This document shows positions 679 to 13,461 of a DNA stretch of 64,000 bases, piece after piece (position 1 is the stretch's first letter; every line of letters starts with the position of its first letter). The DNA lies in contig CALSNU010000001.1 in assembly GCA_943787795.1 (NCBI GenBank), positions 576,001 through 640,000 of the forward strand. The letters are read 5' to 3'. The notes under the pieces were generated by a model. It worked only from the letters and a program-made list of their open reading frames with translations, did not search any database and was not told the origin of the DNA. Position numbers and translations under genes: made by a program. This DNA comes from an uncultured bacterium. Its GTDB lineage: Bacteria; Planctomycetota; UBA1135; GCA-002686595.

Positions 679-2340
679 ATGGCTCTTCACGTCGCTTGGC
701 TGCTGCTCGCCGGGCTCCTGCTGCCGCAGGAGGTCGCTCCGGCACGCCCCGAGGACCTCACCCCGGCGAGCTGGAACACCGAGGGCGAGCTCCTCCCCGC
801 GGTCGAGCTGCCCCGGATCGACGGCCGAGGGACAGTCAACCTCGGCGAGCTCCGCGGCCGCAAGCTCCTCTTGATCCACTTCGCCTCCTGGTGAGCAGGG
901 TGCCGGAGGGACGTGCCGGTCTGGTACGAGAGAGTGCGGCCCTTGGTCGAGGCCGGCGCGCTGCAGATCATCGGCATCGTCCAGGAACAGCATCCGGATC
1001 GTGCGCAGCTCTATCAGCAGTGGAAGGGGCTGGACTTCCCGATCCTCTGGGATCCGTTTGGCCTCTCGGGCGTGGAGGCGGTGCCGGACCTGACCGCCGT
1101 CGACGAGCACGGGGTCATCCGCATCGCCCGGCCAGCCCCTAAGCTGTTCGAGACGCAGTTCATGGAGGGCTTCATGGGCAGGAGCTTCGAGGCGAGTGAA
1201 GGGGAGCCTGTGCCAGCGACCTTCTTCCAGGTGAACGCGTCGGCGCGCCTGCGGGGGGACCTCTCGACGGAGGATCGGGCGCGGAGAGCGATGGCCCGCC
1301 TGATGCTGGCGGGGCCAACGGCCCGCACGATCGACGGCGAGGTCGATGCGCTGGCGTCGGCGGCGGTCGAGGGGCAGCCTCGCGATCGGTTCCGCGCGGG
1401 GGTCGGCCTGCGGATGCGGTTCGACGGGCCGCAGGCGCGTGCCGCAGACCTCCAGCGCTCCATCGACGCCTGGTTCTCTGCGCTCATGGCCTCGCCGAAC
1501 CAGTACATCTGGCGGCGCCGGATTCAGCAGTGGGGCCCAGCGCTGGACAAGCCCTACGCCTTCTACGACTGGGTGGGCGTCGCCCGGGCGGACATCCAAG
1601 CCCGCGGTGAGCGTCCCGTGCGGCTCCTCGCTTCGCTCTCAGGTGCCGAGCGAGCCCAGAGCTCGCGGGCGGTCCCGGTGCTGCGCAGTGGGGCCGTGGA
1701 GCCCGACCCCGAGGACCGGATCACCCTGGACTCCGGGAGGCTCGTGCGCCTCGAGCATGCGGTGGCCTTGAATACCGCGGTGGTGGGACCGCGGATCCGC
1801 GTCCCTCGGGGATCGCTCCGGCTTCACGTGGTCCTTCGGCCGCGTCAGGGGGCCACCTGGCCGGTGGACGCGGACCCGCCGGTGCTCTGGTTGGAGCCGG
1901 GCGAGGGATGGCTGCTGGCCAGCTCGCTCGTCCCCTTTCAGGCCCCAGGCGTCGGTGGAGAGGGACGCCCCCTGATCGCGGACCTGGAACTCTCGACCCC
2001 GCTGAGGATGCTGGCGCCGCCGGACCCCAGCGCCCCACCCCCCGCGGCGACGGCGACGCTCCGCGGCTATGTGCTCTATTCCGTCTGCGAGGCGGACGGA
2101 ACCTGCGTCTTCCGGCGACAGGAGCTGGAGGCGGTCGTCCGCTTCCCCGATCCGCGGCGCGGAGATTCACCTGCGGACGAGGCCCAGGGGGACGAGGCCC
2201 ACGGGGATGAGGCCCAGCGGGGCGAGACGCAGCGGGGCGAGGCGCAGCGGGACGAGACGCAGCGGGGCGAGACGCAGCCGGACAAGGCGCAGGCGGACGG
2301 GGGTGATGGGGAGAGCCAGAAGGGGGGCGCGGATCGGTGA
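679..2340 (+). CDS. Putative secreted selenoprotein: TlpA/thioredoxin-like domain with UxxC motif (TGA 892-894 read as Sec), helical middle region, C-terminal Cys-pair domain and repeat tail
   Basis: ORFs 643..894 and 913..2340 are in the same frame; readthrough gives LLLIHFASW-U-AGCRRDVP, matching the TlpA FWASWCxxC motif; SECIS-like hairpin at 912-928; hydrophobic signal peptide from ATG 679. Confidence 0.85.
912..928 (+). promoter_or_regulatory. Putative bacterial SECIS hairpin
   Basis: CGTGCC-GGTCT-GGTACG: 6-bp stem with one G-U pair and a GGUCU loop; 17 nt separate the in-frame TGA from the stem. Confidence 0.75.
2177..2290 (+). repeat. Degenerate 15-nt coding tandem repeat ([DG]E[AT]Q[RG]-like, about 7 copies)
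   Basis: DEAQG DEAHG DEAQR GETQR GEAQR DETQR GETQP in the selenoprotein tail. Confidence 0.85.
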
Positions 2341-3350
2341 CGATGAGCGGGCCCCGAAGGACGCTTCTCCTGATCGCGATGGCCATGGGCGCCTGCGCTG
2401 GGCCGAGCTCTGATCCGGCGCACCGGGTCCGCGGGCCGATCGCCGCGCGGATCCTCCAGCCCGCTGCGCTGATCTTTCCGTCGCCGCGCCCGGCGCGGGC
2501 GAGCCTCCCGTCGAGCGGAGACGGGCGTGCGCTCATCGACCTTCAGTACTCGTCCATCTTCGAACAGAACGCGAGCGCTGCTGGCGCCGCGAACTTCGAT
2601 GGTGAGGTCGGGCGTCTGGCAGCCAACATTCTCCTCGGCTTCGGTGAGGGCGTCGCTCTGGGTCTGGAGCCCTCCCTCTTGTTTGCCTCCAGCGGCTTCC
2701 TTGACGCGACGGTGGACGCGTTCCACCAGCTGACAGGCCTCCCTGGAGGAGGTCGGGAGAACGCTCCTCGGGACCAATACGGGATGTCGCTGGAGCGGGG
2801 TGGCGTCACCGCGTGGTCCCTCGAGGAGGACGAGCTCCTCCTCGGCGATCTTCCGCTCACGGCGATGATGACCGTGATCGACGAGGGACCGGGCCAGCCC
2901 GGTATCGCGGCGCGCTTCACCGTGGAGTTACCCACCGGGAGCGAGTCCCGCGGCTCGGGGAGCGGCGGCTGGGATACCGCGGCGGGGGTGGTGCTCGAGA
3001 AGTCCTCAGGCCGCTGGACGTTCACAGGCCACCTCGACGGTGTCCGGGTGGACACGCCGCGCGGGTTCCTCGACGCCGGGCTCGACGTGGACTACCTCCT
3101 CTTCGCGGGCACCGGTGTCGAGTACCGGTGGTCCGACGAGACCTCGCTGCTCCTCCAGCTCCAGTACCGCTCCCCGTTGACCACTGACCTTCCCCTCGAG
3201 GAGATCGATCGCGAGATCATGGACGTTGGCGTGGGCGTGGCCCACGACCTGAGCCGTGAGAGCGCGCTCACGATCTCGTTCCATGAGGACGCGGTCGCGG
3301 CCTCGGGCCCCGACTTCACCCTGTACTTCGGCCTCACGTTCGGCTTCTAG
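2337..3350 (+). CDS. Outer-membrane beta-barrel protein, DUF3187-like, possible lipoprotein
   Basis: Signal peptide with MGAC lipobox-like motif, LPTG...GSG segment, alternating strands, terminal FGLTFGF. Confidence 0.65.
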   Translation: MTMSGPRRTLLLIAMAMGACAGPSSDPAHRVRGPIAARILQPAALIFPSPRPARASLPSSGDGRALIDLQYSSIFEQNASAAGAANFDGEVGRLAANILLGFGEGVALGLEPSLLFASSGFLDATVDAFHQLTGLPGGGRENAPRDQYGMSLERGGVTAWSLEEDELLLGDLPLTAMMTVIDEGPGQPGIAARFTVELPTGSESRGSGSGGWDTAAGVVLEKSSGRWTFTGHLDGVRVDTPRGFLDAGLDVDYLLFAGTGVEYRWSDETSLLLQLQYRSPLTTDLPLEEIDREIMDVGVGVAHDLSRESALTISFHEDAVAASGPDFTLYFGLTFGF

Positions 3351-10383: not shown

Positions 10384-13300
10384 TCAGTCGCCGAAGGAGA
10401 TCTGGAGGGCGTCCGACGTGTTGGACGTCACCTGCCCGGCGGCCGAATCACGGTGCCACATCTGGAAGTTCCAGGTGCTCCCACCAGTGATCTGCTGACC
10501 GTTGGTGAAGGGATCGGTGAAGTCGACCCGGTAGGACGCGAGCCCGAGCAGCGGATCGGACTGGACCGGGGGGAGGCGGAACTGAGAGCCACCGACACAC
10601 AGGATGCCCTGGCTACCGCTGATCGGCACCTGGGTCTGCTGGTCCCCGAAGAAGAAGAGCCCGAACGAGCCCGCGGGCATGCTCGAGGCGCTTAGGAAGA
10701 AGTTGTTCTCCGAGACTCGCACGCTCCCGTTGAAGTCGATGCGAGTTGTCAAACCGGTCGAGTTGGGGTTGGCCGCGCAGTAGCGGACAGGGTCCGGGAT
10801 GGAGCTGCCGAGCCCGACAATCTCGATGTCGTCAATGGCGGCCTCGACGATCGAGCCGGAGCCGAGGTCCGAAGCGATGAAGCGGAGCTGCATGCTGGCT
10901 GTCGGCGTCACGATGGAGGAGAGGTCGAAGCTCGCCTGGATCCAGCCGCCGTCCGTTCCGGCTCCGGTGGGGCCAACGCTCTCGACATCAACCCATGAAG
11001 CGCCGCCATCGGCGCTGACCTCCACCTCGAAGATGTCGGCGTTCGGCGAGGCTCCCGCGGTGTTGGAATACCACCGCCAGTAGCTGACCTCGACAGAGTT
11101 CAGGCCGTCCGCGTTGAAGAGGGGGCTCAGCAGGGTGGTGATCCCGCCGTCCACGTCGTTCTCGCCCACGCTGCCGCCCGGAGAACCCTGGCCGGTGAAC
11201 CAGCAGTTCGTGCCGACAGGCGAGTGGTCGTCCTCGGATTGGGCGGCGGTGCCGATCGGGTTGCCGAGCGTCCATTGGCCAGTGGTGGCCGTATCGCCCG
11301 GTGCGCCGCCGACGAAGCCGTCAGCCCCGGCCTCGAACTCGGTCACGATGATGGGGCTGATCTCCCCGACGCGGAAGACCAGCGGCGAGCTCTCGCCTCC
11401 CTCCGGGAAGGACTTGCTCGTGCCGGTACTCTCCGTGGCGTTCACGTAGTACTCGACGCGTGACGGAGAGAGCTGGCCGGGGATGCCGGCCGCAAACGTA
11501 TCGCCGACCGTGTTGGACATGGGGATGGCCGTGAAGCCACCGGTCCCGTTCACGCGGTAGCGCAGCTCGGCGCCCGTGAGCGCCCCTCCGAAGTTGGAGA
11601 CAATGTCGGCCTCGACGACGTAGGGCCCTGCCTCGTCGGGAGTGTCGCCGAGGGCGGTCACGTCGTTGATCGAAATGAGCTGGAGAGCGACGCCGGGGAA
11701 ACCCTGCTGGGTGAACCCTCCGTCGATCTGCGCGTAGTTCGGCGTGCCGTTGTTGATGTTGCCGTCGTCGTCATCGAGGGTCAGCCACTGGGACTCGATG
11801 ATCGAGCGGATCTGCGTCTGGTTGTAGCTGTTGAGCCACCCCAGGAAGAGAGAGTTGGCCTGAAGGCTGCCGGCAGCCGTCCCGAGGGGGCCGCTCTTCA
11901 GTGCCTGACGAACCTTCCAGGCCGCGCCCATCCAGACCTCGCCGTTGGCGTGGACTCCGTTGTAGCAGCCGCCGTTGTTGTCGCCGCAGAACTGGCGGGT
12001 GTTGTTGCCGTTCCGCACGGACCCTCCGCCGGTGGTGAAGAAGCGCCCGACGACGCTGTCGTCGTAGCAGTACATGGCGAACACGTCACCGTTGCCCTCG
12101 CCCATGCCGTCGTTGCCGTTGCCGGTGCCGTAGCGCACGTTGAGCCAGTGCCCCTGCTCGTGGGCGACGACGGTGCTGAAGGCCGTGTTGTTGCAGCCGC
12201 CTCCAGCGAGGTAGTAGTTCGTGGACGAGCCGTTGAAGAACGCGTTGCAGCTGCTGTTGAGGTTGACGTTGGCCGTCGCGCGGAAGTCCGCGGTGGGGTC
12301 CGTCGGGAAGGTGTCGCGGATGAAGTCGCGGAGCACGTTGAGGTGCAGCTGCGTGTTGGCCTGTGAGGTCAGAGGCTGGGTCGGGTTCGGGTTCATCAGC
12401 AGGTCGTTCTGCTGGTTCGGCTGCACGCCCTGGAAGGTGATCGAGTAGTCGGCACCCGTGTCGTTGTTGATGTTGGTGAACTCTCCGAAGTAGTCCACCG
12501 TCAGGTCGAGGGGGGTGTTCACTCCAGTGATCGTGAAGTTGCCGTCACGGTCCGTCTCCACCGTGCCTGCGCTGCTGGTGATGCGCGTCCGCGGCATCGC
12601 GATGGGCGTCGGCGGGTTCGCGCTACGGTCTGCGCTGAGCCCCGGCGTCGCGTTGGCGCGGACCGTGCCGAAGACGTCGAAGTTGTGGATGGTGTTCTCA
12701 CTCTTGATGACGTTCCTTCCGGTCGCGTCGATCGAGTAGCGGCGGCCGATGGGCTGGTCCACACCGTTGTCGAACGTGGCGTCGATCTCCCACGCCAGGT
12801 CCCAGCTCTTCACCTCGCCGCGCTCGGAGTGCGCGTGGACGAGACGTGAATCTCCCATCTGGTTCGGCTGGAGGCCAAACTCATCCTTGAAGGCCCGCGC
12901 CGCCACGAGGGCGGCGAAGCCCGCGCCGGTGGTCGGCTTACCGCTGGGGCTCGTCAGGGTCGCCGCCGCGGTGCAGTGCACCGAGAGGAGCCGTCCGCTC
13001 ATGTCGAACAGGACGTTGACGGCGCCGTCTTCCACGGGGACTCCGTTGACGACCTGCTCGAACCGCACCGTGATCTTGTCCGTGGAGTTCACCTGCCCGA
13101 GGGGCATGAACCGGAAGCGCTCCTCCACCAGTTGGTCCGACTCGATCCCGTGCATCTGGTAGGTCTGCTCGACCCAGTAGCGGGCGAGGGAGAACCACTC
13201 CACGGGCTCGGAGGTGTTCGGCTCGACCGGGGACACCGCGTTTCCACCGAACAGCATCTCCAGGGTGCCCGTCCGTGGGTTGGACAGGAGGCGCCAGGAG

Positions 13301-13461
13301 TCGCCGTGTTCCGCTCGCCAGTTGGCAAGGAGCGTCTCAGGGCTGGAGGTGAACTCGGTCGGCTGGTTCAGCGACTGTGCGGTCGCGGGGGCTGCGAAGA
13401 ATGCCGCGGCGAGAGCAACGCTGGTGATGGGAGCGATCATGCCTGGGATGGAAGGAGTCAA
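10384..13461 (-). CDS. Secreted M36/M4-like zinc metallopeptidase with propeptide, beta-sandwich domains and a conserved C-terminal domain
   Basis: Signal peptide; FTP-like VRFEQVVNGVPV; HEQGH (HExxH), GMGEGNGD and HANGEVW motifs; alternative start ATG 13440. Confidence 0.85.
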   Translation of the reverse strand: MTPSIPGMIAPITSVALAAAFFAAPATAQSLNQPTEFTSSPETLLANWRAEHGDSWRLLSNPRTGTLEMLFGGNAVSPVEPNTSEPVEWFSLARYWVEQTYQMHGIESDQLVEERFRFMPLGQVNSTDKITVRFEQVVNGVPVEDGAVNVLFDMSGRLLSVHCTAAATLTSPSGKPTTGAGFAALVAARAFKDEFGLQPNQMGDSRLVHAHSERGEVKSWDLAWEIDATFDNGVDQPIGRRYSIDATGRNVIKSENTIHNFDVFGTVRANATPGLSADRSANPPTPIAMPRTRITSSAGTVETDRDGNFTITGVNTPLDLTVDYFGEFTNINNDTGADYSITFQGVQPNQQNDLLMNPNPTQPLTSQANTQLHLNVLRDFIRDTFPTDPTADFRATANVNLNSSCNAFFNGSSTNYYLAGGGCNNTAFSTVVAHEQGHWLNVRYGTGNGNDGMGEGNGDVFAMYCYDDSVVGRFFTTGGGSVRNGNNTRQFCGDNNGGCYNGVHANGEVWMGAAWKVRQALKSGPLGTAAGSLQANSLFLGWLNSYNQTQIRSIIESQWLTLDDDDGNINNGTPNYAQIDGGFTQQGFPGVALQLISINDVTALGDTPDEAGPYVVEADIVSNFGGALTGAELRYRVNGTGGFTAIPMSNTVGDTFAAGIPGQLSPSRVEYYVNATESTGTSKSFPEGGESSPLVFRVGEISPIIVTEFEAGADGFVGGAPGDTATTGQWTLGNPIGTAAQSEDDHSPVGTNCWFTGQGSPGGSVGENDVDGGITTLLSPLFNADGLNSVEVSYWRWYSNTAGASPNADIFEVEVSADGGASWVDVESVGPTGAGTDGGWIQASFDLSSIVTPTASMQLRFIASDLGSGSIVEAAIDDIEIVGLGSSIPDPVRYCAANPNSTGLTTRIDFNGSVRVSENNFFLSASSMPAGSFGLFFFGDQQTQVPISGSQGILCVGGSQFRLPPVQSDPLLGLASYRVDFTDPFTNGQQITGGSTWNFQMWHRDSAAGQVTSNTSDALQISFGD

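What the first reader, a model, noticed from the sequence alone, without database searches (positions are those of the whole stretch)
679..2340. Hidden secreted selenoprotein: TlpA-like UxxC domain with a C-terminal Cys-pair domain
Seen: two ORF-track calls are one frame interrupted by a single TGA at the exact position of the first Cys of the thioredoxin-type ASW-C-x-x-C motif (FASW-U-AGC), followed by a GGUCU-capped hairpin. Known: Sec replaces the attacking Cys in thioredoxin-fold selenoproteins. Inferred: a 553-aa exported protein with Sec at residue 72. Its C-terminal YSVCEADGTC segment resembles the Cys pair of DsbD N-terminal-type domains, which would give an intramolecular Sec-to-disulfide relay outside the cytoplasm. 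The next gene, a beta-barrel, overlaps its stop and may be a partner. Standard annotation would split this gene.
Basis: partly seen in the sequence, partly recalled or inferred. Interest (0 to 1): 0.82.

Follow-up and report, generated by a model that had tools for sequence, protein, structure and literature searches.

The report
Hidden exported selenoprotein with DsbD-like domain
The stop codon that splits this bacterial gene sits at the enzyme's active site in nearly all relatives and is very likely read as the amino acid selenocysteine, giving a predicted exported redox enzyme that databases store cut short and that likely passes electrons between two of its own domains.

Summary
Real. Window 679-2340 is one frame with a single internal TGA at residue 72 (FASW-U-AGC). 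The genome has selA, selB, selC and selD. All 68 related loci that align across this column, of 70 examined, have TGA; they come from Planctomycetota, Verrucomicrobiota and Acidobacteriota. A 5-bp hairpin 18 nt after the TGA is paired in 95 of 95 sequences, with compensatory changes. No full-length CxxC form was found. The six TGA-less paralogues have lost the redox motif. The protein is: signal-like N-terminus, TlpA/ResA fold (UxxC), TPR-like helices, Ig-like domain with a Cx5C pair, acidic tail. The Ig domain aligns to DsbD-alpha with the cysteines in register (HHalign 94%); the fold search alone does not single DsbD out. Best reading: an exported reductase whose DsbD-alpha-like pair exchanges with the Sec site, more likely feeding it than draining it. 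Neither step was tested. The closest analogue is plant SOQ1. The downstream barrel is adjacent only in close kin, so a partnership is not supported. UxxC TlpA-like selenoproteins are catalogued; this architecture is in none of the papers or NCBIfam models checked.

The parts
679..2340 (+). Whole gene, 553 aa with TGA read as Sec
   Evidence: an ATG 71 codons before the TGA recurs in L010-L012 and L039-L042
679..744 (+). Predicted signal peptide (hydrophobic stretch, no lipobox Cys); cleavage point not determined
   Evidence: sequence; a hydrophobic 10-mer (Kyte-Doolittle mean at least 2.0) lies upstream in 62 of 65 unique homologues; no signal-peptide predictor was available
760..1191 (+). TlpA/ResA/DsbE-type thioredoxin fold, about residues 28-171, with conserved V135-P136 (likely the cis-Pro loop)
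   Evidence: Pfam AhpC-TSA and Redoxin over cut-off; PDB sequence hits; 3gl3 Z 11.9, rmsd 2.1, 132 aligned
892..894 (+). In-frame TGA, inferred Sec72, first position of UxxC
901..903 (+). Cys75, second residue of UxxC
   Evidence: invariant in 56 of 56 rows of A1
912..928 (+). Bacterial SECIS candidate: stem 912-917 / 923-928, loop GGTCT 918-922, 23 nt from the UGA to the loop
   Evidence: model criteria in PMC13188914 section 5
1267..1602 (+). TPR-like helical region, about residues 197-308, with the conserved PNQYIWRRRIQQ(W/Y)GP motif
   Evidence: helices in the model; TPR_2 hit in 15 of 56 homologues, TPR_1 in 14 of 56, none in the query itself
1729..2148 (+). Ig-like domain related to DsbD-alpha, about residues 351-490
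   Evidence: model pLDDT 91; HHalign 94.3%; 1jpe Z 7.0, 1vrs Z 7.2, SOQ1 7djl Z 7.7
2086..2106 (+). Cys470-x5-Cys476 pair on the last beta-hairpin
   Evidence: 55 of 56 and 56 of 56 in A1; pair present in 76 of 84 Sec forms
2161..2337 (+). Acidic low-complexity tail with pentapeptide repeats, not conserved
   Evidence: Pfam GETHR; differs among homologues
2337..3350 (+). DUF3187 gene overlapping the stop codon; neighbour only, not shown to be a partner

Best explanation
This is one gene whose internal UGA is very likely read as selenocysteine, giving a predicted exported thiol-disulfide reductase in which a DsbD-alpha-like cysteine pair likely recharges a Sec-x-x-Cys active site in the same chain. 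Shown by sequence: one frame, conserved TGA, Sec machinery, covarying hairpin, domain order. Inferred steps: (1) SelB with tRNA-Sec reads the UGA using the 912-928 hairpin. (2) The protein is exported by its signal peptide. (3) The genome's one detected DsbD passes electrons from the cytoplasm to the C470/C476 pair, as DsbD-gamma does to DsbD-alpha. (4) The pair reduces the U72-C75 bond, as DsbD-alpha does for CcmG-type folds. (5) Sec72 attacks an oxidised envelope protein, with the TPR-like helices as scaffold or substrate grip. The substrate is unidentified. My odds: Sec read-through about 0.97; exported about 0.9; DsbD-alpha homology about 0.85; exchange between the two sites about 0.65; pair-to-Sec direction about 0.6 of that.
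For: selA, selB, tRNA-Sec (anticodon tca) and selD are in the genome. TGA is at column 72 in 68 of 68 aligning loci of 70 (65 unique). A TGA lies inside 58 of 66 matches in 174 family genomes and 29 of 31 matches in 301 phylum genomes, the other two lacking the N-terminus. G74, C75 and R76, which lie between the TGA and the annotated restart, are conserved with synonymous variation. Five stem pairs hold in 95 of 95 sequences; pair 22:36 occurs as G-C, A-U, C-G, G-U and U-G (0 of 10,000 shuffles reach this) and pair 24:34 as G-C, G-U, A-U and U-A (2 of 10,000); kin are not independent. Val79 is GTG in 55 of 56, against 43% for other Val codons. HHalign of the C-terminal profile against 30 PF11412 domains gives 94.3%, E 1e-7, 106 columns, both Cys aligned; the reversed control gives 0.2%. 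All 6 TGA-less paralogues lack the Cys pair (3 changes on the tree), while 4 Sec forms in 3 lineages keep UxxC without the pair. That fits a pair that serves the Sec site and can be bypassed. nDsbD reduces CcmG (PMC3137068, passages). The genome's DsbD was found.
Against: No protein-level evidence of Sec. By fold alone DsbD-alpha (Z 7.0-7.2) ties with or trails unrelated Ig folds (best Z 9.0), and Foldseek found nothing at E <= 0.001. Pfam DsbD_N scores 11.8 bits against a cut-off of 25, with a weak hit in 4 of 55. The co-loss is only suggestive: TGA-less paralogues keep just 50-83% of other conserved positions, and one of the six lacks the whole Ig domain. In SOQ1, the closest analogue, electrons run the other way, Trx to CTD (10.1101/2024.11.01.621559, passages). 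Four Sec forms without the pair show that the relay is not obligatory. No redox partner gene recurs nearby in distant loci.
Confidence: 0.45

Rival explanations
1. Same selenoprotein, opposite flow, as in SOQ1 and DsbD gamma-to-alpha: the Sec thioredoxin domain reduces the Ig-domain pair, and the pair reduces the substrate, possibly oxidised methionine.
For: SOQ1 has a Trx-like domain and an nDsbD-like CTD, with exchange measured from Trx to CTD and Msr activity reported (preprints, passages). The SOQ1 CTD ranks 4th for our domain, Z 7.7, rmsd 3.7, 108 aligned; the range ends put C476 in register with C1012, an indirect reading. Losing Sec would also leave the pair idle.
Against: Three Sec lineages lost the pair but keep 86-100% of the other conserved residues, which is odd if the pair is the output. 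No donor for the Sec domain is evident other than DsbD.
Confidence: 0.25
2. Selenoprotein whose C470-C476 bond is structural, or whose two sites work with separate partners; the Sec domain acts alone as a reductase or peroxidase.
For: Exported Ig domains often carry structural disulfides (general knowledge). The pair is dispensable in 4 of 84 Sec forms. The fold match is generic. Coevolution gave no strong Trx-Ig contact.
Against: The pair aligns with the catalytic pair of DsbD-alpha and is missing in 6 of 6 TGA-less paralogues, 5 of which keep the Ig domain.
Confidence: 0.22
3. A cytochrome c maturation factor joining CcmG-like and CcmH/CcmI-like TPR functions.
For: The fold is closest to DsbE/ResA/CcmG. 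TPR_CcmH_CycH hits weakly in 3 of 56.
Against: No ccm or res gene among 108 neighbouring ORFs scanned from distant loci. The ResA, DsbE and TlpA models score far below cut-off.
Confidence: 0.06
4. Two genes or a pseudogene: TGA is a true stop and the second protein starts at GTG 913.
For: Databases hold it so: 138 of 196 stored proteins over 350 aa start at (M/V)P(V/G)W. GTG is nearly invariant there.
Against: The split would cut a thioredoxin fold at its active site and leave invariant C75 untranslated. The stop is always TGA, never TAA or TAG. Divergent members have ATT, ATA, CTG, TTG or GTT at that codon with matching changes across the stem.
Confidence: 0.02

Closest known systems
Catalogued UxxC thioredoxin-fold selenoproteins: thiol-disulfide isomerase-like (cd02966), Prx-like thiol:disulfide oxidoreductase (PF00578), Redoxin family (PF08534), Table 1 of PMC13188914
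   Same: UxxC in a TlpA/redoxin fold; UGA followed by a SECIS.
   Different: The table lists no form with TPR-like and DsbD-alpha-like domains. Whether its representative accessions belong to this family could not be checked.
NCBIfam NF041054, ResA-like WAxxUGC motif protein
   Same: Best NCBIfam hit; ResA-like domain; matched by 56 of 56 members.
   Different: 49.7 bits against a cut-off of 300, over the Trx domain only. The motif here is UxxC, not UGC.
DsbD alpha domain (nDsbD; 1jpe, 1vrs, 6dnv) and its acceptor CcmG
   Same: Ig-like fold with a Cx5-6C pair on the last hairpin, beside a thioredoxin fold.
   Different: No membrane beta domain; the Trx domain is TlpA-type, carries Sec and comes first; a TPR-like linker lies between; cap loop not examined.
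Arabidopsis SOQ1 and human NHLRC2 (10.1101/2021.03.16.435614; 10.1101/2024.11.01.621559)
   Same: One chain with a Trx-like domain, a scaffold domain and a C-terminal nDsbD-like Cys-pair domain. SOQ1 chains appear for both end domains (7djk Z 9.6; 7djl Z 7.7).
   Different: The scaffold here is TPR-like helices, not an NHL propeller; UxxC instead of CCINC. Analogy of layout; common descent of the whole protein is not shown.

Membership tests
Bacterial selenoprotein | In-frame UGA at a conserved catalytic position | tested here: met
   68 of 68 aligning loci; aligns to the first Cys of CxxC in 3hdc and 3gl3
Bacterial selenoprotein | selA, selB, selC, selD in the genome | tested here: met
   selA in 142 of 151 family genomes and in 47 of the 51 that match the gene, the other 4 being 64-83% complete
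Bacterial selenoprotein | bSECIS geometry: 3-9 nt loop, G in its first two positions, 4-16 bp stem, 16-37 nt from the UGA | tested here: met
   5-nt loop with invariant G at position 2, 6-bp stem, 23 nt, covariation
Bacterial selenoprotein | bSECIS energy at or below -7.5 kcal/mol | tested here: inconclusive
   -7.2 for the bare 17-mer, -15.1 for a 46-mer holding it; other folds win in longer windows
Bacterial selenoprotein | Sec found in the protein | not testable with these tools
   needs MS or 75Se
TlpA/ResA/CcmG (TlpA-like) | Thioredoxin fold with the TlpA-type extension and a W-(C/U)xxC motif | tested here: met
ResA, DsbE or TlpA as NCBIfam defines them | Score over the curated cut-off | tested here: not met
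   about 19-21 bits against 123-230
NF041054 WAxxUGC_long | Cut-off of 300 bits and UGC motif | tested here: not met
   49.7 bits; motif UAGC
DsbD-alpha-like domain | Ig-like fold | tested here: met
   not specific to DsbD
DsbD-alpha-like domain | Cys pair in register with the nDsbD pair | tested here: met
   HHalign 94.3%, both Cys aligned, reversed control 0.2%; Pfam match at 88-117 of 119
DsbD-alpha-like domain | Pfam PF11412 over cut-off | tested here: not met
   11.8 bits against 25
DsbD-alpha-like domain | Cap loop shielding the pair; reduction by a DsbD-gamma domain | not testable with these tools
   no model coordinates; needs biochemistry
DsbD (whole protein) | Transmembrane beta domain | tested here: not met
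   the genome's only PF02683 match is on contig C2; none in this protein
SOQ1/NHLRC2 | NHL beta-propeller between the Trx domain and the CTD | tested here: not met
   the middle is helical in the model and TPR-like in homologues
SOQ1/NHLRC2 | Trx-CTD disulfide exchange; Msr activity | not testable with these tools
   needs assays

The most novel reading that the evidence does not exclude
A Sec-only bacterial counterpart of SOQ1/NHLRC2: a soluble one-chain relay (DsbD-alpha-like pair plus Sec-TlpA on a TPR scaffold) that takes electrons from a DsbD that itself carries Sec, forming a selenium-based chain that repairs oxidised envelope proteins in Planctomycetota and Verrucomicrobiota.
Probability: 0.25. 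Interest if true: 0.75.

Novelty: new variant of a known kind. Interest (0 to 1): 0.52.

Why it matters
It adds an apparently uncatalogued selenoprotein architecture that databases store truncated in hundreds of records (612 representatives match the C-terminal profile at E <= 0.001). No Cys twin was found, which is unusual for thioredoxin-fold selenoproteins (own knowledge) and would hide the family from searches that need a Cys homologue. It offers a compact soluble model for DsbD-alpha/thioredoxin exchange and for SOQ1 and NHLRC2, with natural variants lacking either redox site. With the Sec-bearing DsbD and five more UxxC proteins in the same genome, it points to heavy selenium use in the envelope of marine Planctomycetota.

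Tried and rejected
Barrel as partner: adjacency is confined to close kin and the L013 fusion is an N gap. Conserved neighbourhood: none in distant loci. I scanned 108 of 184 picked ORFs against Pfam; the only redox neighbour seen more than once was an exported-looking AhpC/TSA UxxC gene in soil Planctomycetia. Cys orthologues: none. All 34 hits to region 30-128 start after the TGA, the paralogue profile gave 5 hits, and no full-length CxxC form appeared in 174 + 301 genomes; these searches are samples, and the protein searches were length-limited. SECIS by folding energy: not significant. Sequence search of the C-terminal profile against PDB: nothing (best E 0.15). ESM Atlas: unnamed clusters at 0.91-0.93 and a DsbD_N cluster at 0.81, a lead only. 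Coevolution (301 rows, effective 251): intra-domain and helical-Ig pairs dominate; A134-T475 (cis-Pro loop against the residue before C476) ranks 66th among look-alike noise, so it is not counted. RNA runs X17 and X18 hold contigs over parts of the gene but also over 24-25 of 30 bins of the first 12 kb, and come from the possible source study; no expression claim is made. No complex prediction was run. Literature searches with 0 papers: selenoprotein+TlpA+Planctomycetes; selenoprotein+tetratricopeptide+TlpA+selenocysteine; selenocysteine+DsbD+selenoprotein+in-frame UGA. Searches listed 3 and 4 papers that look off-topic by title and abstract start; they were not opened.

Full report
Observation. 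Window 679-2340 is a single frame of 553 codons with one internal TGA (892-894) at residue 72, in FASW-U-AGC. Standard calling gives two ORFs, 643-894 and 913-2340. Contigs of two runs from other studies carry the same letters over the TGA (X3 record 400-2108, one other letter at 1652; X5 record 400-1044, none), so it is not an assembly error.

Sec machinery. The genome (4.7 Mb, about 70% GC, 85% complete) has selA (E 6.6e-120), selB, tRNA-Sec (Rfam 69 bits, anticodon tca) and selD, which itself has an internal TGA. selA is in 142 of 151 genomes of the family and in 50 of 50 that are at least 90% complete. Because it is near-universal there, co-occurrence within the family does not discriminate. 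The closest named relatives are Planctomycetota MAGs, and runs holding the DNA are marine.

Conservation of the TGA. Of 70 loci (30, 40), 68 align across residue 72 and all 68 have TGA. These include the query and duplicates; 65 are unique. Record titles cover Planctomycetota, Verrucomicrobiota and Acidobacteriota. Across the family, 63 of 174 genomes match at 66 places: 58 contain a TGA, 2 are fragments without the N-terminus, and 6 are TGA-less paralogues (the TGA position was checked only in fetched loci). Across the phylum, 29 of 301 genomes match at 31 places; 29 contain a TGA and 2 lack the N-terminus. The six paralogues read D, S, S, D, A or C at column 72 and none has C75. No full-length CxxC form turned up in the protein collection. 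In the sets searched the family is therefore Sec-bearing or redox-dead. The 120 listed hits cover at most 84% of the query, and 138 of 196 stored proteins over 350 aa (the query among the 196) begin at the Val79 codon.

SECIS. The hairpin 912-928 fits the geometry in PMC13188914 section 5 (read): 5-nt loop, G in the first two loop positions, 23 nt from the UGA. Energy gives no support (z -0.15 to -1.26; a rival stem wins in longer windows). Comparison does. In 95 unique sequences from 102 loci the five core pairs are always paired, pair 21:37 in 89 of 95. Pair 22:36 takes five forms and 24:34 four; 0 and 2 of 10,000 shuffles reach the observed pairing. Slid registers mostly fail, though single pairs still score high. 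Kin are not independent, so these counts overstate. Val79 is GTG in 55 of 56, the most fixed codon among 44 conserved columns, against 43% background. That could reflect a start codon, but divergent members use ATT, ATA, CTG, TTG or GTT with matching changes on the other arm.

Anatomy. AlphaFold on 56 sequences gives pLDDT 92 and pTM 0.92 for residues 27-494. Residues 28-171 match DsbE/ResA/TlpA folds (3gl3 Z 11.9, rmsd 2.1, 132 aligned). Residues 197-308 are helical; TPR families hit 12-15 of 56 homologues but not the query. Residues 351-490 form an Ig-like sandwich. Foldseek found nothing at E <= 0.001, with Neisseria nDsbD at ranks 5, 6 and 10. VIA gave DsbD-alpha Z 7.0-7.2 and the SOQ1 CTD Z 7.7 among many unrelated Ig folds, best Z 9.0. 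The fold alone is thus not decisive. Profile comparison is stronger: against 30 PF11412 domains from the phylum (the 30 loci returned of 62 matches) HHalign gives 94.3%, E 1e-7 for this single pair, 106 columns, both cysteines aligned; the reversed profile gives 0.2%. No other Ig family was run as a control. A hydrophobic stretch precedes the Trx domain in 62 of 65 homologues, so export is inferred, not predicted by a dedicated tool.

Are the two sites coupled? The Cx5-6C pair is present in 76 of 84 unique Sec forms. Of the other 8, four are clear losses (L058, L145, L146, L149), one has Cx4C, and three do not align there. It is present in 0 of 6 TGA-less paralogues. On a quick tree of 88 rows (L070 and L075 left out; the trait columns were not removed; long branches meet) both labels need 3 changes. 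Loss of Sec always goes with loss of the pair, while the pair can go alone. This fits a pair that feeds the Sec site and can be bypassed by DsbD's own alpha domains. It is weak evidence: the paralogues keep only 50-83% of other conserved positions, and L081 lacks the Ig domain altogether. Coevolution showed no strong Trx-Ig contact. nDsbD accepts electrons from cDsbD and gives them to DsbC and CcmG (PMC3137068, passages), so both directions have precedent. SOQ1 runs Trx to CTD and is reported to have Msr activity (10.1101/2021.03.16.435614 and 10.1101/2024.11.01.621559, passages only). A likely donor exists: the genome's one PF02683 gene has two alpha-like domains and a TGA in its gamma active site.

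Neighbours. The DUF3187 gene, acylphosphatase, miaE and a patatin flank the gene only in close kin. The barrel follows it in 9 of the 30 family loci, in L039-L046, and in 1 of 25 more distant loci with at least 1 kb downstream. Distant neighbourhoods share nothing general and show no ccm genes in the 108 ORFs scanned.

Known or new. No NCBIfam model reaches its cut-off for the query (best NF041054, 49.7 of 300). The 2026 catalogue (PMC13188914, abstract, section 5 and parts 1-2 of 3 of section 7 with Table 1) lists UxxC TlpA/redoxin selenoproteins but no form with TPR and DsbD-alpha-like domains. Term searches in the main text of BSepDB (PMC13326102) and deep-Sep (PMC12013277) found none of the terms asked. 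Their supplements and databases were not read and may hold members under generic names; bioRxiv supplements were not seen. Three library searches returned 0 papers; the library lacks most subscription journals. An earlier AI note of this scan (e1-9918808) seems to describe the same architecture in another genome; it is not independent support, and sequence look-ups returned nothing.

Verdict. A real, very likely Sec-recoded gene; a new architecture of a known kind of selenoprotein; relay and direction untested; barrel partnership unsupported. Interest 0.52.

Noticed in passing
G000:C2, minus strand, 481749 to about 479170 (L092): The genome's only detected DsbD has two alpha-like domains and an in-frame TGA at 479457 in the gamma active site (FTGHT-U-VVC), so it is likely a selenoprotein too.
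   Followed up: partly
G000:C6:581084-581398 and TGA at 581711 (L091): A PF11412 DsbD-alpha protein whose frame continues through a TGA in SGYI-U-ICMNH (UxC); a possible second DsbD-alpha/Sec fusion.
   Followed up: partly
G000 C1:753692 (+), C2:496831 (-), C4:789560 (+), C6:69376 (+), C6:70103 (+): Five more thioredoxin-like frames with W-U-x-x-C; two appear to have signal peptides and two lie side by side on C6.
   Followed up: partly
L079, L080, L081, L082, L083, L153: Six TGA-less paralogues that have lost UxxC and the Cys pair but keep the signal-like start and much of the scaffold; possible pseudo-enzymes. G117 and G008 hold both forms.
   Followed up: yes
L072:3266-3880, L076, L078 (upstream of the gene): In soil Planctomycetia an exported-looking AhpC/TSA protein with SADW-U-P(Y/F)C lies directly upstream, giving two selenoproteins in tandem; a DUF1223 gene and an ECF sigma factor are near.
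   Followed up: partly
L074 and L152 (same contig as L067 and L133): A near-identical second copy about 6.4 kb downstream lacks the N-terminal 97-125 residues: a partial duplication or an assembly artefact.
   Followed up: no
window 10384-13461, minus strand: A 1025-aa exported-looking protein with an HEQGH motif that looks like a secreted zinc metalloprotease with C-terminal accessory domains; judged by eye, not searched.
   Followed up: no
alignment columns 101 and 109 of the query: The strongest coevolving pair in the family (V101-A109, z 26); column 109 is Cys in 32 of 56 homologues. Unexplained.
   Followed up: no
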